From Clostridia bacterium (GTDB taxonomy: Bacteria; Bacillota; Clostridia; Christensenellales; DTU072), in contig JAFXIQ010000015.1 in assembly GCA_017533005.1 (NCBI GenBank), positions 713 through 64,712 of the forward strand: 64,000 nucleotides of DNA. The letters are read 5' to 3'. Positions 3,084-46,671 of the stretch are shown piece after piece (the stretch's first letter is position 1; every line of letters starts with the position of its first letter). Made by a program: the position numbers and the translations under genes. The notes beneath the pieces are model-generated. The model had not been told where the DNA came from and did not search any database. It saw only the letters and a list, made by a program, of their open reading frames with translations.

Positions 3084-3201
3084 TGTGCCAAGGAGTGGGT
3101 CGAGATATCGGCCCTTTTGCAATAACAATGCGCGTGAGCGCACAAATAATAACCCAAAATCACAAACCACAAATTCCTTACCCCCAAAATGGAGAAACAC
3201 C

Positions 3202-9051: not shown

Positions 9052-9093
9052 ACCGACCTAGGCACGACGCTAACCGATGAACAAAAGCTTCTA

Positions 9094-24000: not shown

Positions 24001-27000
24001 ATGAGCAACGTTGAGTTCGTATATCGTCACACAAGCAAGGACGGCACCGTAAACACCTTCCTATCGAAGGACGAAACGATGATAGTTGCACTTGTAACGA
24101 GCCTAGTAGGCGATAGAATCGTTTACTACTACAACGGCGCTAACAAGGGTGGCTTCACCAAGGACTTCGACGGTGACACGTTAGTATTCAACCCGTTAGA
24201 TAACATCGACGTAAAGAGCGTTGTTTCTCAACTAAAGACTATTAGCTTGAGCTACAATACTTACGATGCAGACGGCAACGTTATTGTTGACGCAACGGGG
24301 GCTCCCGTTCTAGGTACCATCAAGAGATGGAAGATAACGGGAATTGAATATTCTTCACTAGACGAATACGACCCCAAAGAAATTACCGAACAAAAGTTCC
24401 CCGTAGTTATTACGGTTCAAGACGTTCTAGGTAATAAACAAAACATCACCATTTACGTTCAAGTTCTTGATAGACAAATCAAGGCTCATAACCTTGACAC
24501 GTTAATCCCGCAAGAAGTAAGAACAATTAATCCGTTCTCTGGCGCAGACTTCGCTCTACCGAGCGCATTCGAAGTAGATTACGGTTATGCGTTATTGACC
24601 TTGAAAGAAGGCAAAGATTTCGTATGGGAATACGACGTAGAAGAGAAGAAGAGCTTCAACTATCAAGGAACTACTGCTAATAGCTGGGAATACGTAATCA
24701 AAGCTGTTGTTGGCGAAGAAGGATACGAACAATACATTCCTATCACTTACACAATCAACAGAAGAATTCCTACCGGTGTTAAAGAAATAGCAATTTATCC
24801 GTACGCTTCTTATACTAGCGAAGACGAAGTATACAAGGGAGCAACCTTGAACAGCGAACAAGATGCTGAATTCTTCACCGGAAGCAGTAACGTAAACGAA
24901 CAAACCAAACTTTACTACCAAGTAACCAATGAAACCTTTGCTCGTGGCAACGGAACGACGTCTTGGGATTTCGTAACGGTTGACGAAGAAAAGGCAATCG
25001 TAGTTGACGGAATTAAGTACTACGAAAGCGTTGAATTCAAGAACGTATCTTACGACGGTGAAATCTATCACGTCAACGTTCTCTTCATAGACGAAATCTT
25101 CGGCAAACAAATCGTTAAGAACGTTCGTGTTAAACTACTCAAGACGACCGTAAGCTCGTTGAATATACCTGCTATGGAAATCAGCCCGTATTACTCAGAT
25201 GAAGATATCAACAAGATACTCTTCGAGAACGTAGGCAACATTTCTGCTAACGTATACGGCGTAGCTAACACCAAGCTATGGAACAAAGATGACGTAAGTG
25301 GCGCTAAAGCTGCATTCGATATCATTGGCTGGAGCTACGTAGACAAAAACGGCCTATATCCCGACGGCAGAGACGTAACGATTAACGTTGTAATCGGCAA
25401 CAAGGGTTATAAGGCAAACGACGTAGAAACACAAATCTGGTCGCAAGAATTACCATTCACGTTCACGAAAGCAGGTGGATATCTCAGCGACAAGACTGTT
25501 GCAGAAATAACGCCTATTACACAACCTGGTAGCTACAAGTTGTATAAGGATAACGCAGGCAAGTACGTCTTCGAAATCCAAGACCCATACACCTTCGAAC
25601 TACCCACAATGTTGAACGTGGTATTTAAAGACGGCGATAGCTACGATGTTCCGGTAGCTTACGATATGGGCGCAAATAAGGATAAGTTCTACACGTATGA
25701 ACATTCAACGCTAGAAGGCGCTATCATCGTCGGCACAACGATGATAAACAACAAAAACACAGTAGAAGTAACTTATATGAACGTCAATCCGAGAAAGGTT
25801 CTTGAGAACGGCATTAAGTACTTCTACGATGAAGCTCATACCAACGAATTTAGCGATAGCGACAAGACCTTCTACGCACTAGACGGCGTTGAACTACCCA
25901 AGTATGCAACCGTTGATTTGTACAACCAAGCTAATAGTAAAAACGAAACCTTGGAATTCGACGTTGAATGGACGTCGGTAACTACTTACAGCGCTAACAA
26001 GAGTGACTACGTAGAAGGCAAGAAAGAGCTAACGGCTACGGCAAAGATGGGCAATTCAGTCTTCGGTTACATTATCAACGAAGTTAAATTAACGGTAATT
26101 GAAGAACACGTATCCAATTACGTATTGAATAGCGATAGAGCTTATATCAATCCTTACTACGACGTCAAAGACCAAATTGTAGAAGCATTAGGCCTAATCG
26201 ATAACGGCGACGGCACCGTCGGAATCCTAGTAGATACCGTTGATGCAAAAGGCAATGCTTTAAGAAACGGCGTAAAAGTCGACGTTGCACTACCACAAAT
26301 CCCGATGGGATATCAAACGACTTCAAGCTATAACGTTGAACTCGGACTAGGTAGAACGGTTGACTTCGGTGGAGTAACGGCTATCGTAGACGATAAGAAT
26401 AACAAGTTAGGTACGTCAATAGAAGTTAGAGAATACGCTCCATTCATGGCAGTCGTTGAAGCTCGTGTAGCAATCGGTATCGAAACTTGGTACGGCGAAA
26501 ACGTTCTAACAGGCAGTGTTTATGAACAAATCGACTTCGCATCACTAGATACCAGCACCGTAATCGCAGTTGGTAGAGTAGATAGCGATCGCGACCTATT
26601 CGGTGGACAAGTTGGATACAAAGCAATAACTAGAGATTTCTTGGCAGAGGAAAAACTAGCTAACGTATGGCCGGAAGGCATCAATATTCTTGACGAAAGC
26701 CTAGAAGCTCTCAAGCTAAACGGCAGAATTATCGCAGTATATCAACATAACGATATTTACTACGTATGGTATCAAGGCGCATTGAATATCAAAGACGCTA
26801 AGTACCGTCAAGGAATAGCAGATGCAGGTTATCAATTAACCGAAACGGCTAACGGATATCATTCTTACAACAATGGTATTGCTATTGACGTAGCAAGCTA
26901 CGACGAAGGACTAACGATTCTATTCGAAAACGGTGCTTACGAAGATATAGACGTTGAATGGGATGTTTCTTCGTTGAGATACACCTTCTTGGGAGGCAAC

Positions 27001-30000
27001 CACAACGTAAAAGCTACGTTGAAGAAGGGCGACGCTCTACTAGAACAAACCTTCACGGTACGTGTAGACGTTAAACCGAGCAAGCTATATTCAATTAGCG
27101 TAACAAGCGCGGGACTAGCAAACAACAGCGTAGTAAGAACTGAATCAGGCAAGATTACGTCACTACAAGTCGACCCGTACGTTGGATTCGTAGGACTACC
27201 GGAAAAAGTCCTTGCATCATTCGACGGAACAGACGGATACGTAGAAGTCGCAGTTTCTTGGTCGTTCGAGAGAGCCCTTGCTAACATGACTACGCTAGGT
27301 GGCGAATTCAACAAAGATAACAATATGGCTGCAATCGCATCGATTTACGTAATGGTAGACGGTGTAAGAACGGCAATTCAATCGATTGAAATCCCCGTAG
27401 AAGTTATCAATAGAGAACTCATTAGCATCTACGTATTGAACAGCAAGACCAACAAGTACGAAGCATACACCGGTAGCTATGAAATCAATCCTTATGAAAC
27501 TCTATATAGTGAAGATTTCGATAGCACGGACTTCAGTTACTTCAGAAAGGTTCTACTCCGCGTTAAATCTCACGAAACCGATGGCGACTTGAGCCAAGGC
27601 AACCTCGTTGAAGGCAACACCACCGATAAGGAAATCGTCTTCGACTTGACGGCAAAGAACTACAAGTTTGTTGATAGCGAAACAGGTGGCAAGACCAACC
27701 TTGACAAGCTCTACACAGGACGCTTGATAACGGTTGAAATCGAAGCCTCTACCGGTAACGCTACGGCAGCTCGCGATGCAGTATTTAGCGAAGTATTCAT
27801 TACAAGAATTCTTGACATGAGATACGTATCCGGTTTGAATGAAGCATACTTCATCGACCCGTACGGAGTTCTAACAGGAAAAGACGTTGAAGAAGCTGGT
27901 TACGAAGGACTAGGCTTAAGATACGACGATAAGCTAAATATTTATGGCAAGACGGAATTCCCGGATAACAAACTTGTTGTAAACAACATTAACATCACAA
28001 CCGAAAAGATTACTTATCCCGCAACCGTAGAATTTGATACGAGCGACGCTTATACCAAGTTCGTTGATGGTAAGGCAAAAGGTGAAATCGACTTCTCTGG
28101 TGGACGTGCAAAACTATACGCGACACTCGGTAATGAAATCGGTGGATACCAAAGAATAGAAATTCCTGTAATCTACGTTGACAGAACCATTAAGCAACTA
28201 TTCACAACTACAGAAAGTGCTTATGCAAACGACACGGACGAAAACGGCAACCCCGTAACGATGCACTTCAAGTTCGACCCGTTCGACGTATACGATGCAA
28301 CGAAGATTTACCCACAAAGCGGAACCAACGTAATCTTTACGGACAATTCAAGGACAACGTTCGGCACGACTGGCTTAAGCGTAGAATGGAATGACGAAAA
28401 AGTAGCAGTTTCTTACAGAGGAAGCGAAAAGAACAACTACGTCAAGGCAACGGTCAGCTACAATGGCAAGTTCGAACAAGTCTTGAAGTTCTCGGTACTA
28501 GTTTATGATAGAACGGTAACGGGCTTCACCGACGTTTACAAGTATATAACCGACGAAAACGGAAATAGAAAGTACAAGGTCAAGACCGACTATGCTGGCA
28601 ACATCGTATATCAAACGGATGAAGAAGGCAACGTCTTGAAAGACGAAAACGGCAACCCGATTCCTGAATACGTTCTAGATAGCGACGGCAACAAGGTTTA
28701 TGAGACACCTATCATTCAACCTTACAAGTACCTATCATCTACAGACCTAATGAACGATATTGTAAACGATATCTTCAGAACGAACTCAGCATTCACCATT
28801 TACTTCGGTAATATGGGCGCAGACAGCGATAAGTATGCAATCACCTTCACGCTAGGCGCAACGGCATCTTCATTCGTACTAGCAACGGATGCTCCGAATA
28901 AAGACCTTGCTCTAACGACAGGCGACGAAAGCCTAGTAATGAGATTCGTAGCAGATTCAGCTAGAGGCATCTCTTACAAGGGCAAAGACGCTAGATTCTA
29001 CATCACGATACCTGGCTTCGGTATGGGAACAAGTGGTAGACAAGTAGCAACATTCGACGTTGAATGCGCAGAATCTTACATCTTAGGAATTAGATTCCAA
29101 GATAGCGAAGGCAACTATACGATGGACTTCGAACGCTGGCTCAATGCAAACGATGATATCGATAGCGACGACATCGTTATCATGAGAAAGGAAGATGCTG
29201 AATTCTACGATACGTATTACATCCATCAACCATACATGTTCATCAATAGAGGCGGTGTACTCCTACCAGAAACGGCAATGCTTTACGTAGGTAAGAAAGA
29301 CGGCAATATAGAAGACCCCGCAACTTATACGGCGGTAACCGACACCTACTGGTCGAATATGTTTAACGGAAGAGCACGTATTAAGTACAACGAGAATACG
29401 GCGTCCACGACATTCCAAGTAGACTTAGATTATCAAAACTACGCACTTGAGTTTATCGTAAACGATGCTTGGGCATTAACGAACGACGTAGTCTTCGACG
29501 AAGATACGCTCTACGGAAGAGAAGAAGTTATCTTGATGCCTACGCAAAACAAAGTATCCGCTCAATACAAGAGCCAAGTAGCGATACTAGAAGGCACGCA
29601 AGTAGGTGAAGATGATAACGGTAGCGTAATCTATGCAAACGATAGCTTCATAATCACTTACATGAGTGGAGAAACCACAATCGGAGCTGTAGAATTTGGA
29701 CCTATCTCATCGAGCGGAAACAACAAGAATATGGTCAACAAGTGGAACTTCGAAGACGTTGACTGGGATGCAGATAGAAGTGAAAAACAATATGCAACCT
29801 TGAAGCTAGGTGGCGAAGGCGGACAAGTAATTAGATGGGGCTTCAGAGTAGATAAGGACAAGAAACTCGTTAACAACTCTGTTGCAACGCTACATTCAAT
29901 GGAAGAAGGTCAAACAGTCACCTTAGATCGCACGTACAAGCAACTATTCGGTGGTTCGACACTCGCTAAGAGCCCGTCAATCTTCATTGATTACACGTCA

Positions 30001-30957: not shown

Positions 30958-30990
30958 AAAAGCACACGCTCAGGCGTGTGCTTTTCTCTT
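30958..30990 (+). terminator. rho-independent terminator after the 7,282-aa ORF
   Basis: AAAGCACACGC-TCAG-GCGTGTGCTTT, an 11-bp perfect stem, followed by TCTCTT. Confidence 0.8.
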
Positions 30991-31014
30991 GCACGCGCGC
31001 GTAATAATAGGCTA

Positions 31015-31043
31015 TTGACTAGAATTAAAATGTGAGTTATAAT
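31015..31043 (+). promoter_or_regulatory. sigma-A type promoter directly abutting the protease start codon (candidate leaderless mRNA)
   Basis: TTGACT (31015-31020), 17 nt, TATAAT (31038-31043). Only 8 nt separate it from ATG 31052, and there is no Shine-Dalgarno. Confidence 0.55.
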
Positions 31044-31051
31044 TATCGTGT

Positions 31052-34000
31052 ATGAATAAAAGAAATTTTATTATAAAAATTTGTGCAATAGTTTTTGTAT
31101 GTTTACTCGTAGTAGTCACTGCCGTAGCTACGTCGCTTAATTATGGCGAAAGCTCCGAGCCTAATACAAATTATGGCACCTATACCTTTTCGCGCTCTAT
31201 GGAGCTAAATGACGGCGAAAACGTACGCTTTTATGAGAGCGGGGATAACTACTTCCGTTATTATCACGATGAGAACGGTTATATCTTAATTCGCGACTAC
31301 GAAAACAACACTCTTGAATATGCTGTAAACAATGGTAAGGGAAGACCTGTAGCTTCGGGTGTTTCTTATAATGCTAGCGAGTTTATAATTAAAAATACGC
31401 CTAAAATGACGGCGCTTGATATAGATTTTTCTTCTAATCAAGACCTTTTAATGGAATATCCTATTTCCGATGACGTTGACGTTATGCCTCTTTATAGTGG
31501 TGGCACGACACACGAAACAATAGTTAACCTTGTTATTTATATACAATTTAACGACGATTACAGTTTTAGCTTTTCTTCTAACGACTTCAATTCCTATTAC
31601 AACGCGGGAACGAACTCTTTACGTAATTACTACGAAGTAATGTCAAAGGGTAATTTGACCATTAACAGTATGTATCCTGTTAGAGATAGCGTGTTGCCGT
31701 ACGTGTATAAAGCTCCTAATAATCGCGAATATTACAACGTAAAAGACAGCAACTCTACTACTAGACGTAATCGTGAAAAAGAACTTCTTAACGGCGCGGT
31801 AGAAGAAGCTAAAAACAGATTCAGCTTGAGTGGATTAGACCTAGATACGAATAACGACGAATATATCGATTCGGTTTCGTTCTTAATCAACGGCTCTACC
31901 GAAACGACTTGGGGTGGATTGTTATGGCCACATAGTTGGAATTTAGCTTCTATAAACGGCAATAACGACGTTAAAATCGGTGGAGTAACGGTAGGAGATT
32001 TCACCTTTAACTTTACCGATAGCCTTGACGTTGGCGTTATTTGTCACGAAATGGGACACGTTTTGGGCGCTCCCGACTTGTATCACTACGAATACGACTT
32101 CGTACCGGTAGGCAAGTGGGATTTGATGCAATTTAATATGGCGATACCACAATATATGCTAACCTATATGCGCAAAACCTACGTTGGTGGTATTCCCGAC
32201 ACGGCAATAGTAGAAATCAGCAAGAACGGCGTATATTCACTATCTCCCGTTAGTAGCAATCCCGATGTTTTAGCGTATAGAATAAACAGCGATAGGGCTG
32301 ACGAATATTTTATGGTTGAATACCGTAAGCCAAGCGCAAACGGTGGTTATGATACGGGAATATCAGGCGCAGGACTACTCGTTTATCGCATAAAAGAAGG
32401 CGTTACAAACGGTAACCGTGACGCTTTATACAAGAAGAGCGCGTATCCCGATGAAGTTTACGTATTCCGTCCTTCCGTAAATTTGACAGGAAAAGAACTT
32501 TCTACCGATTTGATATACTCAAGAAGTGGAAAGGACGTTGAACTCGCTTATTTATCACCGAATAACGTTAACTTTAGTAGCGTAGGTAGCTTTACAAATA
32601 CTACCAAATACAATAACGAAAATATTTATTATACGGACGGCACGAATGCAGGTATTGTTATATCAGCGCTATCAATCAGCGACGAAAGCATTGAATTTAG
32701 CGTAAAAGTAGACCCCAACGACACCGTTTCGGACGATTATTTTGACGATAAACTCCACGTTAACGAAGCCGTTTACACAAACACTTCGTTCGCAGGCGTA
32801 AACTTAAGCTTAACGCTTAACGAAATCGACGTTGAAAACATCGTTGATTTGTCGATAACACTCGAAGACGTAGATAACAACCCAATCGCAACTAACACAT
32901 TGAACGTTGGTAAGTTTAGAACGGCGTACGCATCGGGAATGCGCACGTTTAATTCACAATTTATCGTTGGTGATAAGGGTAACAACATCGAGAGTGTCTT
33001 TAGTTACGGGGAATTCCTTTCTGACAGCGCGCCCGTTTCTGCAAAAATCTACGTGGTGGATGCCGACGGCGATAAAATGCTAGTCAAAACCATAGCTATA
33101 GATGATAACGATACGGCGTGGTCGATGATTTTGAGCGCAAAAACGTCGCTTTCTGCAAGCGTTGAGGCTGGAAGCAGAATAACGCTAGGCGTTAGAACCG
33201 ACGGCACTGTGAGTGTTTCTGGCACTGGAAACGAGGTTTTCGCGGGTATTAAGAACGCGACAGGCGTTGTCAAAGCCAGCGCAGGGGTAGCGCATACGCT
33301 TGCCGTACTTCGTAATTTGACGGTTATGGCTTACGGTGCGAATTACAACAATGAATGTAACGTATCGGGTTGGAGAGATATTAAAGACGTTTCTGCCGGG
33401 AATTATACGTCTTACGGCGTAACGACAGACGGAAACGTTATGGCCGTAGGTCTTAATAACTACGGACAATTAAACGTTCAAGATTGGAAGAATATAATTA
33501 AAGTCGATGCAGGCGCTAGACACGTAGCAGGCGTTGATACGGCTGGCAAGGTATATGCCGTAGGAGATAATGCGAACGGTCAGCTTAACGTAGCGGGCTT
33601 AACAGATATTATCGACGTTGCGTGTGGAAATACGTTCACGGCTTGCTTAAAGAGTGACGGTACGGTTGTCATAGTAGGAACGCTTGCTAACGGAAACGCT
33701 TCGGAGTGGGAAAATATCACTTTGATTTCAGCAGGAAACACGCACCTAGTCGGATTAAAAGCGGACGGAAAGGTGGTTTCTACCGGCGATAATACGTATG
33801 GACAAGCTTCCACAATCAATCTTTACGACATAGAAGACGTTTCTTGTGGCGAGTATCACACGGCGTATTTGAGAAAGGACGGCGTTGTAGAATATCGTGG
33901 AGAGGGTAACAGTCAATACGGCACGAACACCGAGCTTAAAAATCTTAAATATGCAGATACGGAATACGTAAAAGCAACGGGAGTACAAACTGCTTCCGAA

Positions 34001-37000
34001 ACCTATCGCGTTGCAAAAGGCGAGAGCATTTATCTCACGACTACGATTATGCCCGTTACGGCAACGTATAAGAGAGCTATTTTTGCTACCGGTGACGTAA
34101 ATGTTGCTACGGTTAGCGCAACCGGAGAAGAAACTGCTAAAATTACCGGTATTTCCGTAGGAAAAACCTCTATAACTATAAGACTAAACGGAACGGGAAT
34201 AACCAAGAAAATAGACGTAGAAGTCTATGAAACCGTGGCGCTTCAAGAAATAGTTTTTGCAGATAGCGAGAAGAGTATTCTTATAGGCGAAACTGCTCAA
34301 CTAACGCTATTGCTTCAACCAGAGAATGCTATTGCACAAGGAACGCCATATTATCGTTCATCTGACGAGAGCATTGTAAGCATTGACCAAAACGGCGTAA
34401 TCACAGCGGGCGACAGAGTGGGTAGCGCAACGATTTACGCGGTGCTCGATGGAAAAGTCGCAGAATGTACGATAAACGTTGTTTCTACAATAGATAGCAT
34501 TTCACTTTTAACTACAAATCTACAAATTAAATACGACCAAGAAATTTCTTGGAGCGAGTTGTTTATGGACGTTGTTATTGGAAATAGCACGGAAAGGATA
34601 GCTTTAACCGAGGATATGATAAAAACCGATTATTCCATAACGGCGATAGACGTTTCGCAAACAATATCGGTTGAATATATGGGACACGTTAAGACGTTTG
34701 TTTTGACTGTCAGAAATTACGTAACGGGAGTGGCTATTTCCACGCTACCTAGAACGGAGTATGCTTACGGCGAAGGTATGAAAGTAACGGATTTCGTTGA
34801 TGGGAAATTAAACGTTGAATACGCTTATGGAAGTAAAGAAGAAAAAATCGACATAAGTTACGTTTCCGGCTATGATGCAGGCAAAGTAGGAATGCAAACT
34901 ATAACGATTACTTACATAGATTCGACTTGGGGAACGTCTTTCATAACCGTATACGACGTAAAGGTTGAAGATACCGTATTGGAAATCAGTTACAATCCGG
35001 AAAATCGCAACTATTATTTCGGTGATGAATATAGAATGACCGATGAATTCACCATAAAAATGAATTCCGGTGCAATTAGATATAAAGAAGTTTTTGATGC
35101 TACTATTGAAAATTTCGATTCTACGGTTTTGGGCGACCAAATAATAACTCTTAAGTATTTCGATGACGTAGCAAAGGTTGAACACAGTGTAGAAGCCTAC
35201 GTAAACGTTAGCCTAGGCAACGACTTTGTTATAAACGGGGCAAACGAAGACGGCAAACACTATTTCGAAGTAGGTGGAAATCTAGGCTTGACAGTAACCG
35301 TTATACAAAACGACGGTGACGTCATCAGTATCGCGCCTAAAAATAGTGAAGAAGATACTGTGTGGGTAGCTTTCAGTGGCTTTGATAATAGTACTATGGC
35401 TGAACACGCAGTCGTCGTTAGTATTTATGGTAAAACCAGAGAGTATACGGGTAGCGAATACGTTGTTAAGGAAAGACTAGTTGCAGTTGTCGGCACCATA
35501 AACGCATTCGGAAAAAAACAATCGGAAAGATTGAGCCTTGTTTACGAAAGAACCGAGTTTAAGTACGGCGAAGACGTTGACGTTAAGATAAAAGTTGAAT
35601 ATACCGACGGCACGGTAGACGTTATAGAGCCGATGGAAGAAGCTTACGACCCAGAAACCGTTGATATTGAACAAATTTACTACGCTAGATACATTGACGA
35701 GTGGCTAGAACTTCCCATTATAATTCACGATTACGTGATGGGATTACAACCGATAGAAGATAAAGTTACCAAGTATAACGTAGCTATTTCTATTAGCGTT
35801 TACGCTATAATGGCGAAAAATGGTGTTGTTAAACTAAATGCCAGCGACTATCAAGTAAGTAATTATAGTCTAACGGACGTTTCCGGTACGCAAACCGTTA
35901 CCGTTAGTTATATGACGTTTGCAACGAGCTTTAAACTTACCGTAAACGATACGTTTAGCTCTATTGCAGTCAAAGAGAGCATTAAAAAAGACTATTTATA
36001 TAAAGAAGACATTGATTTAACGTCAAAATACGTTATAACAATGGAATCGGGCGCAAAGAAAGAAGTTAGCTACGATAGCAATTTCTATTATAGAGTCGAT
36101 CATAGTGCTACCATTAAATTCGACAATACCAACACGAGTAACCAACAAATAATCTCGATTTATTACAGGTCGGAATTTGGTGACGTAAACGTTTGCGACG
36201 TTTACGTAATGGTACACAATTACGTAGAAAAGTTGGTAGTAGAGAATGGTAGCAAGCTCGACTACGAGTATGGCGAAGCTCTAGAAATAAGTGTAAAAGC
36301 CGTCTATGCTAACGGCGCAAGCGAAAAACTCAAAAACACGCAATACACGACTACTTACGATGCAAAGAAAGCCGGCGTACAACAAATTGTAATTAGATAC
36401 GTTGATAATTATGCGGGTATAGTTACCAGCCTTGCAACGGTTACGGTAAACGATACCATAATAAGCGCGGAAATGACTACTTATCCCAACGTTCGTTCGT
36501 ATAACTTTGGAGAGGCGCTCAGTTGGGTAGGCGCCGTATTAAAGGTTGATTACGCAGGTGGTACGTCCGCAATTTATAGGGGAAATGAAATTAAGGTATT
36601 CCCAATAACTTACAACCCCACCAAGACGGGTACGCAATACGTTGTTGTTAACCTTGGCGAGAATGAAGTTAGATTTTCGGTAAACGTTTCGGTAGAAAAC
36701 GACACCGTGCTATCATATTCCATCACAAAAGAAGGCTTGACGTTTGATAGAGCAAACAGGAAGTTCGTTGTGGATAAAGAAGGGTTGGTGGTTAGTGACG
36801 TCTTCGCACCCATCGTTTATGCTAAATACTTAACGGCAAACTACGTTTCTAGTGGCACTGAAATCGACGCGCCTACTACGAGCACGAGAAAGTTGAGAAC
36901 AGGGGACAAAGTCGTTTTGAAAAACGCAGACGAAGTTGTGGTTTACGAACTTGTAGTTTACGTATACGGCGATGCTAGTGGCGACGGAATTTTCGATAGT

Positions 37001-37213
37001 GACGACGTTGACAGCGTAGCGCAAGCAATCGCATCGGGAAGCGTTCAAAAAGACGTTATGGACTATGATTTAGACGGAGAAGTTTCCTTGACCGACCTAG
37101 TAAATTGGGCAAGAAAAGCGAATCCTTTGGATATACCTAACAATATGCCGTCCAAGAAGTTTATTTCAGACGTAAAAATACGCAAAAAGGAGAATGGTGA
37201 AATTGAAATCTAG
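31052..37213 (+). CDS. secreted multidomain M6 (immune inhibitor A-like) zinc metalloprotease with RCC1-like repeats, Big_2 and Big_3-like Ig arrays and a C-terminal dockerin
   Basis: The N-terminal hydrophobic signal/anchor is MNKRNFIIKICAIVFVCLLVVVTAVATS. The zinc motif is VICHEMGHVLGAPDLY, the HEXXH...PDLY typical of M6/InhA. Repeats and dockerin are listed as separate features below. Confidence 0.8.
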   Translation: MNKRNFIIKICAIVFVCLLVVVTAVATSLNYGESSEPNTNYGTYTFSRSMELNDGENVRFYESGDNYFRYYHDENGYILIRDYENNTLEYAVNNGKGRPVASGVSYNASEFIIKNTPKMTALDIDFSSNQDLLMEYPISDDVDVMPLYSGGTTHETIVNLVIYIQFNDDYSFSFSSNDFNSYYNAGTNSLRNYYEVMSKGNLTINSMYPVRDSVLPYVYKAPNNREYYNVKDSNSTTRRNREKELLNGAVEEAKNRFSLSGLDLDTNNDEYIDSVSFLINGSTETTWGGLLWPHSWNLASINGNNDVKIGGVTVGDFTFNFTDSLDVGVICHEMGHVLGAPDLYHYEYDFVPVGKWDLMQFNMAIPQYMLTYMRKTYVGGIPDTAIVEISKNGVYSLSPVSSNPDVLAYRINSDRADEYFMVEYRKPSANGGYDTGISGAGLLVYRIKEGVTNGNRDALYKKSAYPDEVYVFRPSVNLTGKELSTDLIYSRSGKDVELAYLSPNNVNFSSVGSFTNTTKYNNENIYYTDGTNAGIVISALSISDESIEFSVKVDPNDTVSDDYFDDKLHVNEAVYTNTSFAGVNLSLTLNEIDVENIVDLSITLEDVDNNPIATNTLNVGKFRTAYASGMRTFNSQFIVGDKGNNIESVFSYGEFLSDSAPVSAKIYVVDADGDKMLVKTIAIDDNDTAWSMILSAKTSLSASVEAGSRITLGVRTDGTVSVSGTGNEVFAGIKNATGVVKASAGVAHTLAVLRNLTVMAYGANYNNECNVSGWRDIKDVSAGNYTSYGVTTDGNVMAVGLNNYGQLNVQDWKNIIKVDAGARHVAGVDTAGKVYAVGDNANGQLNVAGLTDIIDVACGNTFTACLKSDGTVVIVGTLANGNASEWENITLISAGNTHLVGLKADGKVVSTGDNTYGQASTINLYDIEDVSCGEYHTAYLRKDGVVEYRGEGNSQYGTNTELKNLKYADTEYVKATGVQTASETYRVAKGESIYLTTTIMPVTATYKRAIFATGDVNVATVSATGEETAKITGISVGKTSITIRLNGTGITKKIDVEVYETVALQEIVFADSEKSILIGETAQLTLLLQPENAIAQGTPYYRSSDESIVSIDQNGVITAGDRVGSATIYAVLDGKVAECTINVVSTIDSISLLTTNLQIKYDQEISWSELFMDVVIGNSTERIALTEDMIKTDYSITAIDVSQTISVEYMGHVKTFVLTVRNYVTGVAISTLPRTEYAYGEGMKVTDFVDGKLNVEYAYGSKEEKIDISYVSGYDAGKVGMQTITITYIDSTWGTSFITVYDVKVEDTVLEISYNPENRNYYFGDEYRMTDEFTIKMNSGAIRYKEVFDATIENFDSTVLGDQIITLKYFDDVAKVEHSVEAYVNVSLGNDFVINGANEDGKHYFEVGGNLGLTVTVIQNDGDVISIAPKNSEEDTVWVAFSGFDNSTMAEHAVVVSIYGKTREYTGSEYVVKERLVAVVGTINAFGKKQSERLSLVYERTEFKYGEDVDVKIKVEYTDGTVDVIEPMEEAYDPETVDIEQIYYARYIDEWLELPIIIHDYVMGLQPIEDKVTKYNVAISISVYAIMAKNGVVKLNASDYQVSNYSLTDVSGTQTVTVSYMTFATSFKLTVNDTFSSIAVKESIKKDYLYKEDIDLTSKYVITMESGAKKEVSYDSNFYYRVDHSATIKFDNTNTSNQQIISIYYRSEFGDVNVCDVYVMVHNYVEKLVVENGSKLDYEYGEALEISVKAVYANGASEKLKNTQYTTTYDAKKAGVQQIVIRYVDNYAGIVTSLATVTVNDTIISAEMTTYPNVRSYNFGEALSWVGAVLKVDYAGGTSAIYRGNEIKVFPITYNPTKTGTQYVVVNLGENEVRFSVNVSVENDTVLSYSITKEGLTFDRANRKFVVDKEGLVVSDVFAPIVYAKYLTANYVSSGTEIDAPTTSTRKLRTGDKVVLKNADEVVVYELVVYVYGDASGDGIFDSDDVDSVAQAIASGSVQKDVMDYDLDGEVSLTDLVNWARKANPLDIPNNMPSKKFISDVKIRKKENGEIEI
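32045..32059 (+). other. HEMGH zinc-binding active-site motif
   Basis: cac gaa atg gga cac is in frame with 31052 (codons 332-336), followed by LGAPDLY. Confidence 0.85.
33180..33930 (+). repeat. RCC1-like beta-propeller repeats (about 7 blades)
   Basis: Recurrent D[IV]x[AC]Gxxh[TS]xxhxxDGxVx[AS]hGxNxxGQxx[VI] units, for example KVDAGARHVAGVDTAGKVYAVGDNANGQLNV and DVACGNTFTACLKSDGTVVIVG. Confidence 0.65.
33960..36900 (+). repeat. Ig-like domain array: two Big_2-like domains, then about 10-12 Big_3-like repeats
   Basis: Big_2-like examples are YRVAKGESIYLTTTIMPVTATYKRAIFATGDVNVATVSATGE..ITGISVGKTSITI and ILIGETAQLTLLLQPENA...YRSSDESIVSIDQNGVITAGDRVGSATIYA. These are followed by repeated ..P.K.EY.YGE.LD..G..L.V.Y..G.. 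units, for example LPRTEYAYGEGMKVTDFVDGKLNVEYAYGSKEEKI. Confidence 0.6.
36967..37125 (+). other. dockerin-like module (two Ca2+-binding loop/helix repeats)
   Basis: GDASGDGIFDSDDVDSVAQAIASG and DYDLDGEVSLTDLVNWARKA match the duplicated D-x-[DN]-x-D-G-x-h-[DNS]-x-x-D-h pattern of type I dockerins. Confidence 0.65.
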
Positions 37214-37919
37214 AAGAATAATTTCCGTGTTGATAATAATTTTGCTACTTTCTGCGTGTTTATTAGTGGCGTGTGGCAATCCTATACCCAGAGAAGTAGA
37301 AAAAATCGCTATTATAAACGGCTCTTTCAAGGATACTTACAATCTCGACGAAGTCGTTAGCCTTAAAGATGCAAAAATAAGGGTAACGTATACCGATGGA
37401 ACGGGAGAGAATATTCCCATAACGCAAGATATGATTAGCGGGCTATCGACGGCTATTTGTACTAATAGTGCGACGCTTACGGTAACTTATAAAGAAAAAA
37501 CGGCTACTTTTATATATAAAGTCGTTTCGGATAGAAATATTGAATCTGCAGTTAGATTAAAAGCAGAGTGGGTAGAAGGCGAAACCAATTATATATCGGT
37601 GAAAGCGAGTGGCGTAGCTAATTCAGACCTTGCAGCAGTGAGCTTTACTTGTACGGCAAACAACGCTTTAACCTTAAAAAACGCAACTCTTACTTTGTCT
37701 AGCAAGTGGGCGTTGCAATATAGCGCAATAGATGCGAGAAACGTAAGAGTAGTTATCTATTCAAAGACCGGTGACGATACTTTGAATACCGACGGAGAAA
37801 TTTGCAAAATTAACGCTGTAAAAGGAATGGGGAATGCAGAAGTGTATCTGCAAAGCGCATCGTTTTCGAATGGAGAAAGAGATTTCACCATACCACCAGC
37901 GAGTTTAGAAATAGAGTAG
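37194..37919 (+). CDS. lipoprotein with an N-terminal Big_3-like domain and a C-terminal cohesin-like domain
   Basis: Signal peptide with lipobox (IIILLLSACLLVAC|GN). AGGAGA immediately precedes ATG 37194, so TTG 37203 (9-nt spacing, MKSRRIISVL...) may be the real start. The gene overlaps the end of the protease gene. The C-terminal 130 aa (AVRLKAEWVEGETNYISVKASGVANSDLAAVSFTCTANNALTL...VRVVIYSKTGDDTLNTDGEICKINAVKG...) follows the strand pattern of type I cohesins. Confidence 0.7.
   Translation: MVKLKSRRIISVLIIILLLSACLLVACGNPIPREVEKIAIINGSFKDTYNLDEVVSLKDAKIRVTYTDGTGENIPITQDMISGLSTAICTNSATLTVTYKEKTATFIYKVVSDRNIESAVRLKAEWVEGETNYISVKASGVANSDLAAVSFTCTANNALTLKNATLTLSSKWALQYSAIDARNVRVVIYSKTGDDTLNTDGEICKINAVKGMGNAEVYLQSASFSNGERDFTIPPASLEIE
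37520..37916 (+). other. cohesin-like domain
   Basis: By-eye pattern similarity to type I cohesin: AVRIKV...V.V.F.G....G.A...F...YD...L......IVFLF....G......DG.F..I...V. No profile search was run. Confidence 0.5.
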
Positions 37920-37928
37920 GAGTAGAAC

Positions 37929-39395
37929 ATGATAGCTATTATACCTAAACCACAATACGCAAAGATACTTTCTAATAACGTTTTCAATTATACAGAAAAA
38001 GACGTTACGAGAGAAGTGGACTTGTCTCTCGCAAAAAAGGGAGAATATACCCTAAAAATCGACGAAAAAGGCATTTTTGTGAGTGCAAAAGATGATATAG
38101 GATTTTTCTATGCAGATAAAAGCATCGAACAACTGCTTTTGCAAGGCGCGCTTCCGCATTGTGAGATAAAGGACTTACCGAAATACGAATATCGTGGCTT
38201 TATGTTGGACTGCGCGAGACATTTCTTTAGCGTTGAAACTGTCAAAAAGCAAATTGATATGATTTCCAAGTTCAAAATGAACGTTTTTCATTGGCATTTA
38301 ACTGATGACCAAGGCTGGAGAATACAAATCGATAAGTACCCACTTTTAACCGAAATCGGCTCTTACCGTGCGGGAACAAGGGGTGATAATAAACCCGTTA
38401 GTGGATATTACACCAAGGATGAAATAAGAGAAATCGTGGCTTATGCAAAAGAAAGGTATATAGACGTCATTCCCGAGATTGATATGCCGGGACATTTTTC
38501 GTCGGCTTGCGCTAGCTATCCACATCTATCGTGCTCGGGTGTAAGACCTAATGTAAAAGAAGGTTTTGGTATTCACGTTGATGTCGCTTGTGCAGGGAAA
38601 GAGAGTACGTATGAGTTTATAAAAGATATCATTGACGAAGTTGTCGAACTTTTCCCTTGCGAATACGTGCATTTGGGTGGGGACGAAGCATTACGTACAG
38701 ATTGGCTAGATTGCTCGGACTGTCAGCGTACCATTCAAGAGAATGGATTGAAAGACGAAGATGAGCTTCAAGCCTACTTTATGAATAAAATAGTTAGCTA
38801 TTTGAATAGTAAAGGCAAGAAGGCGATTAACTGGAACGACGGTATGATTGCGGAGAACGTGAGAGATGATATAATCATTCAACATTGGCAAGAAGGCGAA
38901 AAATCTCTAGAGGCAACCGTTCGTGAACTTAAGAAGGGAAGAACCGCGATAATTTCTCCATTCTTTAGCTATTATTTAGATTATCCTTACGGTATGACGC
39001 CTTTGAAAAAAACCTTCAAATGCAATCCGAAAATCGTAGATGAAGACGTGAACATTTTAGGCGTAGAATGTCCTTTGTGGACGGAGTACGTGGATAGCGA
39101 AGAGAAACTCGAGAAGCAAGTTTATCCAAGATTACTCGCCGTCGCAGAGAGAGGATGGAGCGAATACCATAATAATTACAAAGATTTTGACGCTCGCGTT
39201 AAGTTGGTAAGTAATATGTTTGACAAATATGGTATCAAATGTGCTAGAATAAAAGATGCAAATCCAACGATATTCACAGGGAAGCTTATATCTCTCATTA
39301 AGTTTTTCTGGAATGCAAAAGACAAGACGTTATTAGAATCTCAAACAAGAATAAATACCAACCATAGAAGGTTAAAGGAGAAGTATGGAAAATAA
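37929..39395 (+). CDS. GH20 beta-N-acetylhexosaminidase (no signal peptide)
   Basis: RGFMLDCARHF, FHWHLTDDQGWR and VHLGGDE are the catalytic-region motifs of GH20. GGAG lies 7 nt upstream. Confidence 0.85.
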   Translation: MIAIIPKPQYAKILSNNVFNYTEKDVTREVDLSLAKKGEYTLKIDEKGIFVSAKDDIGFFYADKSIEQLLLQGALPHCEIKDLPKYEYRGFMLDCARHFFSVETVKKQIDMISKFKMNVFHWHLTDDQGWRIQIDKYPLLTEIGSYRAGTRGDNKPVSGYYTKDEIREIVAYAKERYIDVIPEIDMPGHFSSACASYPHLSCSGVRPNVKEGFGIHVDVACAGKESTYEFIKDIIDEVVELFPCEYVHLGGDEALRTDWLDCSDCQRTIQENGLKDEDELQAYFMNKIVSYLNSKGKKAINWNDGMIAENVRDDIIIQHWQEGEKSLEATVRELKKGRTAIISPFFSYYLDYPYGMTPLKKTFKCNPKIVDEDVNILGVECPLWTEYVDSEEKLEKQVYPRLLAVAERGWSEYHNNYKDFDARVKLVSNMFDKYGIKCARIKDANPTIFTGKLISLIKFFWNAKDKTLLESQTRINTNHRRLKEKYGK

Positions 39396-46620: not shown

Positions 46621-46671
46621 CTAAACGCCCAAGATGTGTTATTATTAAAAATAATACTTTTGGAGCGAAAC

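What the first reader, a model, noticed from the sequence alone, without database searches (positions are those of the whole stretch)
31052..37213. Unusual domain fusion: M6/InhA-type metalloprotease + RCC1-like propeller + more than 12 Ig-like repeats + dockerin
HEMGH...PDLY (32045-32080) places the N-terminal catalytic domain in the immune-inhibitor-A (M6) family, whose characterised members cleave host or extracellular-matrix proteins. Here it is extended by a roughly seven-bladed RCC1-like repeat region (33180-33930). It is further extended by two Big_2-like domains, a long run of Big_3-like repeats (to about 36900) and a dockerin. I have not seen a 2,053-aa M6 enzyme with a dockerin described. 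The stalk length suggests the catalytic head is presented far from the cell surface, beside the giant fibre encoded upstream.
Basis: partly seen in the sequence, partly recalled or inferred. Interest (0 to 1): 0.65.

Follow-up and report, generated by a model that had tools for sequence, protein, structure and literature searches.

The report
Surface-tethered InhA-like protease with cohesin anchor
The 2,053-residue protein is a real, probably active InhA-type zinc protease on a long stalk, and its dockerin end probably plugs into a small membrane lipoprotein encoded by the next gene; this protease-and-anchor pair is shared by many uncultured gut Clostridia and has never been studied.

Summary
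The ORF (31052..37213, +, 2,053 aa) and its domains are real.

**Domains, N- to C-terminus**
- InhA/M6 unit, about 700 aa. TIGR03296 and Pfam Peptidase_M6 score above their cut-offs, HExxHxxGAPDLY is invariant, and the best fold match is B. anthracis InhA2.
- Seven-bladed RCC1-like propeller.
- Two Big_2 modules.
- Eight clear Big_3-like modules plus one divergent one.
- One unrelated beta module.
- A dockerin. The window's copy is below the Pfam threshold, but the call is secure at family level.

- The Ig count is 10-11, not more than 12.
- The architecture is not unique. About 75 protein clusters and about 30 species-level MAGs (Christensenellaceae, Ca. Stercoripulliclostridium and related Clostridia) share it. 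None is characterised.
The overlapping downstream gene (37194..37919) encodes a lipoprotein with one Big_3 and one cohesin domain (TM 0.77 to C. perfringens cohesins).

**Pairing evidence**
- The protease-cohesin gene pair is present in 26 of 29 syntenic loci.
- It persists where the giant gene or the RCC1 domain is absent.
- The window holds exactly one dockerin and one cohesin.

**Best reading:** a Sec-exported protease held non-covalently on the membrane through a dedicated 1:1 dockerin-cohesin pair. Binding and substrate are untested.

**Verdict:** a new variant of a known kind, of moderate interest.

The parts
31052..31141 (+). N-terminal signal peptide or signal anchor of the M6 protein (aa 1-30).
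   Evidence: It is the only hydrophobic segment of the protein (mean Kyte-Doolittle above 1.6 only for 19-mers starting at aa 2-14). The model predicts a helix at aa 2-29. All homologues have a basic n-region followed by a hydrophobic stretch of about 20 aa. Whether it is cleaved was not testable.
31142..31531 (+). Putative pro-segment (aa 31-160): a small beta domain at aa 44-105, then a low-confidence linker.
   Evidence: The AlphaFold model has strands at 44-105 and pLDDT of 56-60 at aa 131-150. The whole 700-aa unit aligns to the InhA2 zymogen over about 690 columns. The pro-peptide role is inferred, not shown.
31532..32389 (+). M6 (InhA/thuringilysin-type) catalytic domain, aa 161-446. 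It contains HEMGHVLGAPD (aa 332-342, nt 32045-32077) and the Met-turn candidate M359 (nt 32126-32128).
   Evidence: TIGR03296 scores 136.6 bits against a cut-off of 110.8, matching model positions 1-286 of 286. PF05547 scores 46.6 bits against 22. H332, E333, H336, G339, P341, D342, Y344, W356 and M359 are invariant in 43 sequences that include distant phyla.
32390..33151 (+). InhA-like accessory beta domains following the catalytic domain (aa 447-700).
   Evidence: This region is modelled with pLDDT of 85-96. It is part of the roughly 690-column Foldseek alignment to InhA2 (4yu6/4yu5). It is unrelated to the Ig repeats (hhalign probability at most 6%).
33161..33949 (+). Seven-bladed RCC1-like beta-propeller (aa 704-966).
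   Evidence: Pfam RCC1_2 scores 123.8 bits. PDB phmmer hits RPGR, HERC2 and RCC1. Seven blades of 37-38 aa are present; blade 1 was recovered by an HMM built from the other six (i-E = 5.4e-7).
33950..34486 (+). Two Big_2 Ig-like modules (aa 967-1145).
   Evidence: Pfam Big_2 scores 40 bits on the segment, with two stretches. The two modules are 99% related by hhalign.
34487..36700 (+). Nine Big_3-like modules (aa 1146-1883): eight clear, and one divergent at aa 1388-1487.
   Evidence: Pfam Big_3 scores 32-38 bits. Eight modules are related pairwise at 94-99% by hhalign. The divergent module (r4) is 86% related to r8 and 64% to r6.
36701..36967 (+). Unclassified beta module immediately before the dockerin (aa 1884-1972).
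   Evidence: It has no relation to the Big_2 or Big_3 modules (hhalign probability at most 11%). It is conserved in the family alignment A1.
36968..37135 (+). Type-I-like dockerin (aa 1973-2028) with two Ca-binding loops, DASGDGIFDSDD and DYDLDGEVSLTD.
   Evidence: - The family profile hits solved dockerins (6kg9 at E = 8.7e-9; also 2y3n, 2vn5, 3ul4, 2ccl, 1ohz) across both repeats.
- 23 of 30 orthologous C-termini match Pfam Dockerin_1.
- A leave-out family HMM matches the window copy at E = 1e-23, and this is the only such hit in six frames.
- Loop positions 1, 3, 5, 9 and 12 read D-S-D-D-D and D-D-D-S-D.
- The window copy alone is below the Pfam threshold (11.1 against 22.9 bits).
37136..37213 (+). 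Post-dockerin tail (aa 2029-2053) and stop codon. It overlaps the start and ribosome-binding site of the next gene.
   Evidence: The family shares a tail with the pattern P.N.P...A..F[IV]...K.KEE. In 18 of 26 loci a GGAG for the downstream gene lies inside this tail and encodes the K-E. The tail is absent where the two genes do not overlap.
37194..37919 (+). Partner gene: a lipoprotein with one Big_3 and one cohesin domain.
- Signal peptide and lipobox: LVAC, Cys27, nt 37272-37274.
- Big_3: about aa 34-111.
- Cohesin: about aa 115-241, nt 37536-37916.
- The real start may be the TTG at 37203.
   Evidence: - Cys27 is invariant in 27 orthologues.
- Big_3 scores 24.4 bits.
- The family profile hits the NagJ cohesin (2jh2, 2ozn, 2o4e) at E = 3-4.5e-4.
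- Relatives carry PF00963, and one is named 'cohesin domain-containing protein'.
- The model has pLDDT of 89.1.
- The top Foldseek hits are cohesins 2jh2, 2vo8 and 2w1n, with TM 0.77-0.78 and rmsd 2.2-2.4 A.
- A leave-out HMM matches at E = 1.5e-30, the only cohesin hit in the window.
- The Shine-Dalgarno spacing favours TTG 37203 as the start.
37929..39395 (+). GH20 beta-N-acetylhexosaminidase without a signal peptide, 10 nt after the cohesin gene. It is a frequent third member of the cluster.
   Evidence: Pfam Glyco_hydro_20 scores 356 bits. The same position is occupied by GH20 in L001, L002, L084 and L085, but not in L004. The absence of a signal peptide is read directly from the sequence.
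3202..30942 (+). Giant surface protein gene (about 9,246 aa) upstream. It is a frequent but not obligatory neighbour. In this window it is split by an in-frame TGA at 9049-9051.
   Evidence: The two ORFs are in the same frame. A near-identical contig carries one gene of 9,246 aa. A C-terminal homologue lies directly upstream in 17 of 26 loci. No cohesin or dockerin was found in it.
30965..31043 (+). Terminator-like hairpin (30965-30980) and the best promoter-like site of the region (TTGACT-17-TATAAT, 31015-31043), both between the giant gene and the M6 gene.
   Evidence: The promoter-like site matches 11 of 12 positions, the best of 34 sites. The total number of sites is no higher than in shuffled sequence, so this is suggestive only.

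Best explanation
The gene encodes a Sec-exported zinc endopeptidase of the InhA (M6, thuringilysin) type that sits at the tip of a long modular stalk.

**Order of parts, N- to C-terminus**
1. Signal or anchor, then a pro-segment.
2. InhA-like catalytic unit of about 550 aa, with the zinc site HExxHxxGxxD and a Met-turn.
3. Seven-bladed RCC1-like propeller, a likely ligand- or substrate-binding module.
4. Eleven Ig-like modules and one further beta module, acting as a spacer.
5. A calcium-binding dockerin.

**Anchoring.** The dockerin binds the single cohesin of the lipoprotein encoded by the overlapping, translationally coupled downstream gene. The mature enzyme is thereby held non-covalently at the outer face of the cytoplasmic membrane by its C-terminus, with the catalytic head distal.

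**Shown here:** domain identities, intact catalytic motif, cohesin fold, lipobox, and conserved gene pairing.

**Inferred:** that this dockerin binds this cohesin; that the N-terminal segment is removed on activation as in InhA; and that the enzyme degrades extracellular host or dietary (glyco)proteins for nutrition. The last point is suggested only by the conserved cytoplasmic GH20 gene next door and by the GH95, ROK and PIG-L genes nearby.
For: **Catalytic unit**
- PF05547 and TIGR03296 score above their curated cut-offs.
- HExxHxxGAPDLY and W-D-L-M359 are invariant in 37-43 sequences.
- The 700-aa model (pLDDT 85.5) matches the InhA2 zymogen 4yu6/4yu5 at E = 1.6e-14 over about 690 columns. 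The next hits are about ten orders of magnitude weaker.

**Dockerin**
- The family profile hits solved dockerins at E = 8.7e-9.
- 23 of 30 orthologues match Pfam Dockerin_1.
- A leave-out HMM matches the window copy at E = 1e-23.
- Both Ca loops are intact.

**Cohesin lipoprotein**
- The lipobox Cys is invariant.
- The family profile matches the NagJ cohesin.
- Relatives carry PF00963 and the NCBI name 'cohesin domain-containing protein'.
- The model has pLDDT of 89, and cohesins are the top fold hits with TM 0.77-0.78.

**Pairing**
- The small gene follows the M6 gene in 26 of 29 syntenic loci, usually overlapping it by 4-20 nt with an embedded Shine-Dalgarno sequence.
- The pair persists without the giant gene (L084; hhalign 99.95%) and without the RCC1 domain (L085; 98.6%).
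- There is exactly one dockerin and one cohesin in all six frames of the 64-kb window.

**Precedent**
- Dockerin-bearing S8 and cysteine peptidases bind cell-anchoring cohesins in cellulosome producers (PMC12484212).
Against: - No binding experiment or complex model exists. I could not model the complex with the tools available.
- The window's own dockerin and cohesin both fail the Pfam thresholds on their own.
- The dockerin-family profile also hits EF-hand proteins such as calmodulin at E of about 1e-3 to 1e-4.
- The N-terminal hydrophobic stretch is long (about 23 aa) and has no obvious AXA site, so it could be an uncleaved anchor. That would change the topology.
- Only 64 kb of the genome was seen, so other cohesins or dockerins may exist elsewhere.
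- In P0075 the second dockerin loop is degenerate although the cohesin neighbour is retained.
- The substrate is entirely unknown.
Confidence: 0.65

Rival explanations
1. The protease is a dedicated processing or release enzyme for the giant surface protein encoded upstream, analogous in logic to LapG acting on LapA. The dockerin-cohesin tether serves to place it next to that substrate. This is compatible with the anchoring model but gives it a different purpose.
For: A homologue of the giant's C-terminus lies directly upstream of the M6 gene in 17 of 26 loci at 29-39% identity. The giant starts with a lipoprotein-type signal, so both proteins would sit at the same surface.
Against: In 9 of 26 loci the giant is absent, although the M6 gene is present at all nine and a downstream small ORF was found at all but L016. 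A terminator-like hairpin and the best promoter-like site separate the two genes. The LapG analogy comes from memory and was not tested.
Confidence: 0.15
2. The adjacent cohesin and dockerin are not partners. The dockerin docks to a cohesin encoded elsewhere in the genome, for example on a scaffoldin or wall-bound protein, and the lipoprotein's cohesin receives another dockerin protein.
For: Only 64 kb of the genome was examined. Dockerins (PF00404) were reported in four Christensenellales single-cell genomes but a cohesin in only one (PMC10266427). A few larger proteins carry the Big_3-cohesin dyad (for example P0164, P0187, P0190).
Against: The adjacency is conserved and the genes are translationally coupled in 26 of 29 loci and in two architectural variants. 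The window holds one dockerin and one cohesin. The exhaustive search found no multi-cohesin scaffoldin of this type.
Confidence: 0.12
3. The C-terminal module is only a structural EF-hand-like calcium-binding pair with no cohesin-binding role. The protein is either released into the medium or held by an uncleaved N-terminal membrane anchor.
For: The window copy scores 11.1 bits against the Pfam cut-off of 22.9. The family profile also hits calmodulins and other EF-hand proteins, and 7-12 of 30 orthologues also match EF-hand models. The N-terminal hydrophobic stretch is long.
Against: The best hits are bona fide dockerins over both repeats, with E values 4-5 orders of magnitude better than calmodulin. 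The module sits at the extreme C-terminus, as dockerins do. A cohesin gene is conserved immediately downstream.
Confidence: 0.08

Closest known systems
Immune inhibitor A peptidases (MEROPS family M6, 'thuringilysins'): Bacillus InhA1/InhA2 and Vibrio cholerae PrtV
   Same: - Same profile families (PF05547, TIGR03296).
- Same zinc motif HExxHxxGxxD with Asp as the third ligand, described for thuringilysins in PMC12237041.
- The whole 700-aa N-terminal unit superposes on the InhA2 zymogen.
   Different: - Only about 14% identity to InhA2; phmmer against the PDB does not find it.
- About 1,350 extra residues: propeller, 11 Ig-like modules and a dockerin. InhA and PrtV have none of these.
- InhA and PrtV are released enzymes of pathogens with known substrates: antimicrobial peptides, fibronectin, fibrinogen and plasminogen (PMC2613228). 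This enzyme is in gut commensal-type Clostridia and its substrate is unknown.
Dockerin-bearing peptidases of cellulosome producers: C. thermocellum S8 protease with double dockerin binding ScaD, and R. flavefaciens cysteine peptidase binding ScaE
   Same: A protease carries a C-terminal dockerin that is proposed or shown to bind a cell-anchoring cohesin rather than the enzyme scaffold (PMC12484212).
   Different: - The catalytic class here is an M6 metallopeptidase, not S8 or cysteine.
- No cellulosome context was seen in the window: the GH20 and GH95 genes lack dockerins.
- The cohesin partner is a dedicated single-cohesin lipoprotein encoded in the same operon, not an SLH- or sortase-anchored scaffoldin.
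Non-cellulosomal cohesin-dockerin pairs of Clostridium perfringens glycoside hydrolases (NagJ cohesin, PDB 2jh2, 2ozn, 2o4e, 2vo8, 2w1n)
   Same: These are the closest solved cohesins in both sequence profile (E = 3-4.5e-4) and fold (TM 0.77-0.78). They are used outside cellulosomes to assemble secreted enzymes that act on host glycoconjugates.
   Different: In C. perfringens the cohesin and dockerin sit on different secreted enzymes and join them to each other (my own knowledge; not checked here). Here the cohesin sits on a membrane lipoprotein and would serve as an anchor.
Shorter relatives in the same clade (P0076-P0078, about 1,380 aa: M6 + Big_3 + dockerin, without RCC1)
   Same: Same catalytic domain (38-40% identity), a dockerin above the Pfam threshold, and the same downstream cohesin lipoprotein and GH20 genes.
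   Different: No RCC1 propeller, a shorter stalk, and no post-dockerin tail.

Membership tests
Peptidase family M6 (immune inhibitor A / thuringilysin) | Match to the curated family profiles above their cut-offs. | tested here: met
   PF05547 scores 46.6 bits (cut-off 22). TIGR03296 scores 136.6 bits (cut-off 110.8) over model positions 1-286 of 286.
Peptidase family M6 (immune inhibitor A / thuringilysin) | Zinc-binding motif HExxHxxGxxD with Asp as the third ligand. | tested here: met
   H332-E-M-G-H336-V-L-G339-A-P-D342 is present and invariant in 37 and 43 aligned sequences. The motif definition is taken from PMC12237041.
Peptidase family M6 (immune inhibitor A / thuringilysin) | Met-turn below the zinc site (metzincin hallmark). 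| tested here: inconclusive
   M359, in W-D-L-M, is invariant 17 residues after D342, including in distant phyla. Its position under the metal could not be inspected because model coordinates are not returned.
Peptidase family M6 (immune inhibitor A / thuringilysin) | Fold and multidomain layout of InhA. | tested here: met
   The Foldseek top hits are 4yu6 and 4yu5 (InhA2 zymogen), with E = 1.6e-14 to 8e-13, probability 1.00 and 684-745 aligned columns. TM is only 0.41 because of domain orientation.
Peptidase family M6 (immune inhibitor A / thuringilysin) | Metal-dependent endopeptidase activity. | not testable with these tools
   Requires expression and assay.
RCC1-like seven-bladed beta-propeller | Seven tandem RCC1-type blades. 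| tested here: met
   RCC1_2 scores 123.8 bits (cut-off 22). Seven blades lie at aa 704-966. The whole-domain model WD40_RLD scores 96 bits, below its cut-off of 150.
Big_2 / Big_3 bacterial Ig-like domains | Profile matches and internal homology of the repeats. | tested here: met
   Big_2 scores 40 bits on the segment; Big_3 scores 32-38 bits. hhalign gives 2 Big_2 modules at 99%, 8 Big_3-like modules at 94-99%, and one divergent module at 86%.
Dockerin type I (PF00404) | Profile match above the gathering threshold. | tested here: not met
   The window copy scores 11.1 bits (E = 0.48) against a cut-off of 22.9. At family level, 23 of 30 orthologues match at E of 0.01 or better, with a best E of 7e-10.
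Dockerin type I (PF00404) | Duplicated segment of about 22 residues, each with a Ca-binding loop and a helix, at the C-terminus of the protein. | tested here: met
   - The loops DASGDGIFDSDD and DYDLDGEVSLTD have liganding positions D-S-D-D-D and D-D-D-S-D.
- The family profile aligns to both repeats of solved dockerins (6kg9 at E = 8.7e-9).
- A leave-out HMM matches at E = 1e-23.
Dockerin type I (PF00404) | Ca-dependent binding to a cohesin. | not testable with these tools
   Supported only by context: a cohesin gene overlaps the 3' end of the M6 gene in 26 of 29 loci.
Cohesin (PF00963), for the downstream 241-aa protein | Profile match. | tested here: inconclusive
   - The window copy has no Pfam Cohesin hit, and only 2 of 27 orthologues match.
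- The family profile hits the NagJ cohesin at E = 3.3e-4.
- Distant members P0137-P0140 carry PF00963.
Cohesin (PF00963), for the downstream 241-aa protein | Nine-stranded beta-sandwich cohesin fold. | tested here: met
   The model has pLDDT of 89.1. The top hits are 2jh2, 2vo8 and 2w1n (TM 0.77-0.78 normalised to the target, rmsd 2.2-2.4 A, 131 columns). Many cellulosomal cohesins solved in complex with dockerins follow.
Bacterial lipoprotein, for the downstream 241-aa protein | Signal peptide ending in a lipobox with an invariant Cys. | tested here: met
   The sequence L-V-A-C27 follows a hydrophobic helix. The Cys is invariant in 27 and 20 aligned orthologues. Lipidation itself is not testable here.
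Cellulosome | A scaffoldin with several cohesins, and dockerins on carbohydrate-active enzymes. | tested here: not met
   There is one cohesin and one dockerin in six frames of the window. The GH20 and GH95 genes lack dockerins. No multi-cohesin protein of this cohesin type appears among the best 150 representatives. The rest of the genome was not seen.

The most novel reading that the evidence does not exclude
The M6-dockerin protein, its lipoprotein cohesin and, in most lineages, the roughly 9,000-residue lipoprotein-type giant together form a previously undescribed surface apparatus of Christensenellales-type gut Clostridia. In this reading a long proteolytic 'arm' is plugged into the membrane by a private 1:1 cohesin-dockerin socket and is used to harvest host or dietary glycoproteins, with the released HexNAc-bearing fragments finished in the cytoplasm by the co-encoded GH20. 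It would be the first cohesin-dockerin system whose primary role is anchoring a protease in a non-cellulolytic commensal lineage, and the first lipoprotein-borne cohesin anchor.
Probability: 0.2. Interest if true: 0.7.

Novelty: new variant of a known kind. Interest (0 to 1): 0.45.

Why it matters
Christensenellales-type Clostridia are widespread in animal and human guts. They are mostly uncultured, and little is known about their cell-surface biology.

If the model holds, it gives three things:
- A concrete, testable anchoring mechanism for very large surface enzymes in these organisms: a lipoprotein cohesin socket.
- An extension of cohesin-dockerin biology beyond fibre degradation, to a dedicated operon-encoded pair that tethers a protease.
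- A conserved, probably active InhA-type protease as a candidate for host-protein or glycoprotein degradation by commensals.

The small orthogonal cohesin-dockerin pairs could also serve as parts for surface display.

Tried and rejected
1. phmmer of the whole protein against PDB sequences found only RCC1 and Ig hits and no M6 structure. The InhA2 relationship appeared only by fold comparison.
2. An exact look-up of the window protein in the contig index failed. The 100%-identity representative P0001 differs by at least one residue (V to L at aa 1970) and lies on a near-identical contig.
3. The word-indexed homologue search for the small protein gave only 4 close hits. I therefore collected orthologues by synteny and searched again with the profile.
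4. P0046/L037 (2,343-2,356 aa) looked like a natural M6-cohesin fusion. I rejected it as Rosetta-stone evidence because the fused ORF keeps the internal signal peptide and lipobox, so it is more likely a missing stop or read-through.
5. Modelling the dockerin-cohesin complex was not attempted. Chimeric or locus-derived sequences are not accepted by the structure tool, and it returns no contacts or PAE, so an interface could not be judged.
6. The first upstream-ORF test for the giant was unreliable where ORF-extended starts were used. I replaced it with tblastn.
7. The InhA2 structure paper (PMC4706643) is not held. The motif definition was taken from PMC12237041 instead.
8. The idea that the conserved K-K-E-E at the C-terminus is a sorting signal was dropped in favour of an embedded Shine-Dalgarno sequence.
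9. The exhaustive representative search with the small-protein profile was swamped by Big_3 repeats. It added only family size and the absence of multi-cohesin scaffoldins.
10. Literature searches for 'immune inhibitor A' plus dockerin, and for Christensenellaceae plus cohesin plus dockerin, found no description of this system.

Full report
**1. Observation**

The window contains an uninterrupted ORF at 31052..37213 on the + strand, encoding 2,053 aa. The ORF lies in a same-strand run of genes. Upstream are two very long ORFs, 3085..9051 and 9094..30942. Downstream are a 241-aa ORF that overlaps the stop codon by 20 nt (37194..37919) and a GH20 gene (37929..39395). The wider context is a Firmicutes chromosome: SpoIIE, AddAB, an S26 signal peptidase, a P-type ATPase, GH95, a ROK-family protein and a PIG-L deacetylase.

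**2. Domains of the large protein**

- *Profile matches.* Pfam gives Peptidase_M6 (46.6 bits, cut-off 22), RCC1_2 (123.8 bits), Big_3 and Big_2. NCBIfam TIGR03296, the 'M6 family metalloprotease domain', matches end to end at 136.6 bits against a cut-off of 110.8.
- *Catalytic residues.* In an alignment of 37 full-length relatives, and in one of 43 sequences that includes distant phyla, these residues are invariant: H332, E333, H336, G339, P341, D342, Y344, W356 and M359. This is the HExxHxxGxxD zinc motif with Asp as third ligand, as described for thuringilysins (PMC12237041), plus a plausible Met-turn.
- *Fold.* An AlphaFold model of aa 1-700 (pLDDT 85.5) finds the B. anthracis InhA2 zymogen (4yu6/4yu5) as its best solved match. 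The E value is 1.6e-14 over about 690 columns. The next hits, the Akkermansia O-glycopeptidases, have E values near 5e-4. The entire N-terminal third is therefore an InhA-type multidomain unit, not only a catalytic core. The M6 assignment is sound.
- *N-terminus.* The only hydrophobic segment is at aa 5-30. Residues 31-160 form a small beta domain plus a poorly ordered linker ahead of the catalytic domain. I read this as a pro-segment by analogy with the InhA2 zymogen. That is an inference.
- *Propeller.* It has seven blades of 37-38 aa at aa 704-966. An HMM built from six blades recovers the seventh independently.
- *Ig-like modules.* I cut the family alignment into candidate modules and compared them profile against profile. 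The result is two Big_2 modules (99%), eight mutually related Big_3-like modules (94-99%), and one divergent Big_3-like module (86% to r8). An 89-aa module before the dockerin is related to neither type. That makes 10-11 Ig-like repeats, not more than 12.

**3. The dockerin**

On its own, the window's C-terminus scores only 11.1 bits against Pfam Dockerin_1, whose cut-off is 22.9. Family-level evidence is much stronger:

- The C-termini of the family share a duplicated motif, GDxNGDG...D...A, then DYNGDG...LTDLVNWARK.
- A profile of 30 such C-termini hits solved dockerins over both repeats. These include 6kg9 at E = 8.7e-9, plus 2y3n, 2vn5, 3ul4, 2ccl and 1ohz. The E values are four to five orders of magnitude better than for calmodulin-type EF-hands.
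- 23 of the 30 C-termini individually match Dockerin_1.
- An HMM built without the window sequence matches the window's aa 1968-2027 at E = 1e-23.
- Both Ca loops have liganding residues at positions 1, 3, 5, 9 and 12.

I accept the dockerin call. Cohesin binding itself remains untested.

**4.

The 241-aa downstream protein has three parts: a signal peptide ending in a lipobox (LVAC, Cys27), a Big_3 domain (24.4 bits), and a C-terminal beta domain that Pfam leaves unassigned. I collected its counterparts by synteny. An ORF of 230-253 aa with the same layout follows the M6 gene in 26 of 29 loci, and the lipobox Cys is invariant. Four lines of evidence identify the C-terminal domain as a cohesin:

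- The profile of these proteins hits the C. perfringens NagJ cohesin (2jh2, 2ozn, 2o4e) at E = 3-4.5e-4 through positions 108-229.
- More distant members carry Pfam Cohesin hits, and one is named 'cohesin domain-containing protein [Christensenellales bacterium]' by NCBI. That protein is the downstream gene of locus L036.
- An AlphaFold model (pLDDT 89.1) shows a signal helix and two beta sandwiches.
- Foldseek places the second sandwich on the cohesins 2jh2, 2vo8 and 2w1n, with TM 0.77-0.78 and rmsd 2.2-2.4 A over 131 columns. Many cellulosomal cohesins solved in complex with dockerins follow.

A leave-out family HMM finds this cohesin at E = 1.5e-30 and nothing else in six frames of the window. 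The dockerin HMM finds only the M6 C-terminus. The window therefore holds exactly one dockerin and one cohesin, in adjacent and overlapping genes.

**5. Conservation and distribution**

The full architecture (2,020-2,180 aa, 97-100% query coverage, 31-40% identity, one relative at 80%) occurs in about 75 clusters at 90% identity. It also occurs in about 30 species-level genomes. All are metagenome-assembled: Christensenellaceae, Candidatus Stercoripulliclostridium, and unclassified Clostridia from chicken, sheep, goat, human, termite and digester samples. Outside this clade only the catalytic region of about 500 aa matches.

The M6-cohesin adjacency is the most stable feature of the locus:

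- L084 (P0075, 29% identity) has no giant gene; ATP synthase genes and a kinase lie upstream instead. Its gene order is still M6, small protein, GH20, P-type ATPase, a 561-aa protein, S26 and GH95, as in the window. Its small protein is 99.95% related to the family by hhalign.
- L085 (P0076) carries a 1,379-aa M6-Big_3-dockerin protein without RCC1. The cohesin-type ORF (98.6%) and GH20 again follow it.
- A homologue of the giant's C-terminus lies directly upstream in 17 of 26 loci with enough flank and is absent in 9.
- A terminator-like hairpin and the best promoter-like site of the region lie between the giant and M6 genes. These are consensus matches only.
- In 20 of 26 loci the small gene overlaps the M6 stop codon by 4-20 nt. 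In 18 of 26 a GGAG lies 6-16 nt before its start, inside the M6 frame. This points to translational coupling.

**6. Mechanism**

The best-supported reading is as follows. The enzyme is exported by Sec. It is matured by removal of the N-terminal segment (inferred). It is then held at the cell surface by its C-terminal dockerin, bound to the cohesin of the co-expressed lipoprotein. The catalytic head and the propeller sit at the far end of a stalk of about 12 beta modules.

Precedents exist in cellulosome producers, where S8 and cysteine peptidases bind anchoring cohesins through dockerins (PMC12484212).

The substrate is unknown. The conserved neighbouring GH20 has no signal peptide, and GH95, ROK and PIG-L genes lie nearby. 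This hints at glycoprotein or glycopeptide foraging, but only weakly.

The rival readings are scored separately: dedicated processing of the giant protein, non-cognate partners elsewhere in the genome, and a purely structural EF-hand module.

**7. Comparison with known systems, and novelty**

The catalytic unit is a divergent member of M6. Its profiles, motif and fold meet the criteria. The Met-turn geometry and the activity were not testable here.

The anchoring principle is the known cohesin-dockerin interaction. Three features are new relative to described systems:
- an M6 protease as the cargo;
- a single-cohesin lipoprotein as a private anchor, encoded in the same operon;
- the lineage, which has no cellulosome features in the window.

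Dockerins and one cohesin have been noticed in Christensenellales single-cell genomes, where they were labelled cellulosome components without further analysis (PMC10266427). I found no paper on this family. I therefore rate it a new variant of a known kind. It is common in its clade, annotated only generically, and uncharacterised.

**8. Limits**

- No binding or activity data exist.
- Both interaction modules of the window fall below Pfam thresholds on their own.
- Whether the N-terminal segment is cleaved is unknown.
- Only 64 kb of the genome was examined.
- All relatives are MAGs, and some have evidently wrong bin labels.

Noticed in passing
window 3085-30942 (TGA at 9049-9051): The two giant ORFs (1,988 aa and 7,282 aa) are in the same frame and are separated by a single in-frame TGA. 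A near-identical ENA contig carries one gene of 9,246 aa, which would start at the ATG at 3202 (MKTKFFARLLILLIVAGLCLTMFAC, a lipoprotein-type signal). TGA is a normal stop elsewhere in the window (46620, 48876). The interruption is therefore a nonsense mutation, a sequencing error or a read-through site.
   Followed up: partly
window 3202-30942: The giant protein of about 9,250 aa has almost no recognisable domains. Pfam finds only one CarboxypepD_reg module (aa about 3369-3429 of the second ORF) and a weak Big_4 hit. It has no cohesin or dockerin. Its C-terminal 1,500 aa are conserved at 29-39% identity upstream of the M6 gene in 17 of 26 related loci.
   Followed up: partly
window 37136-37213: The conserved 'K-K-E-E' at the end of the M6 proteins coincides with the Shine-Dalgarno sequence (AAGGAG) of the overlapping downstream gene. 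It is missing where the genes do not overlap. The upstream part of the tail (P.N.P...A..F[IV]) stays unexplained, and it is present even in P0075, whose second dockerin loop is degenerate.
   Followed up: partly
window 37194-37205: The annotated ATG start of the cohesin lipoprotein lies only 1 nt after the GGAG. The TTG at 37203 (spacing about 10 nt) would give a 238-aa product starting M-K-S-R, like relatives P0123 and P0124.
   Followed up: partly
window 31015-31052: The best promoter-like site of the region (TTGACT-17-TATAAT) ends 9 nt before the M6 ATG, and no Shine-Dalgarno sequence is visible. The transcript could be leaderless, or the match could be chance.
   Followed up: no
L037 (contig JAITQU010000009.1), 496-7566; protein P0046: In one termite-associated Christensenellaceae MAG the M6 ORF runs on into the cohesin lipoprotein, giving 2,343-2,356 aa. 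The internal signal peptide and lipobox are retained, so this is probably a lost stop codon or an assembly error rather than a true fusion.
   Followed up: partly
window 42066-43724: A 552-aa protein with only a weak dienelactone-hydrolase hit lies before the S26 signal peptidase gene. A similarly sized ORF (560-561 aa, no Pfam hit) holds the same position in L002 and L084.
   Followed up: no
L008, L010 (genome contigs): Full-length members of this Christensenellales-type family sit on contigs labelled 'Ruminococcus bicirculans' (L008) and 'Spirochaetia bacterium' (L010). Their flanking genes include the same giant homologue and cohesin lipoprotein. The labels probably reflect mis-binning or mislabelling of MAG contigs.
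   Followed up: no
window 37929-39395 and 46636-48876: GH20 (no signal peptide) and GH95 genes flank the cluster, and ROK-family and PIG-L deacetylase genes lie at 629-2790. Together they suggest HexNAc- and fucose-containing glycan use near the protease locus.
   Followed up: no
window 58071-58529: A small ORF (152 aa) has a BspA-type leucine-rich repeat match at 47.7 bits. It may be a fragment of a surface protein.
   Followed up: no
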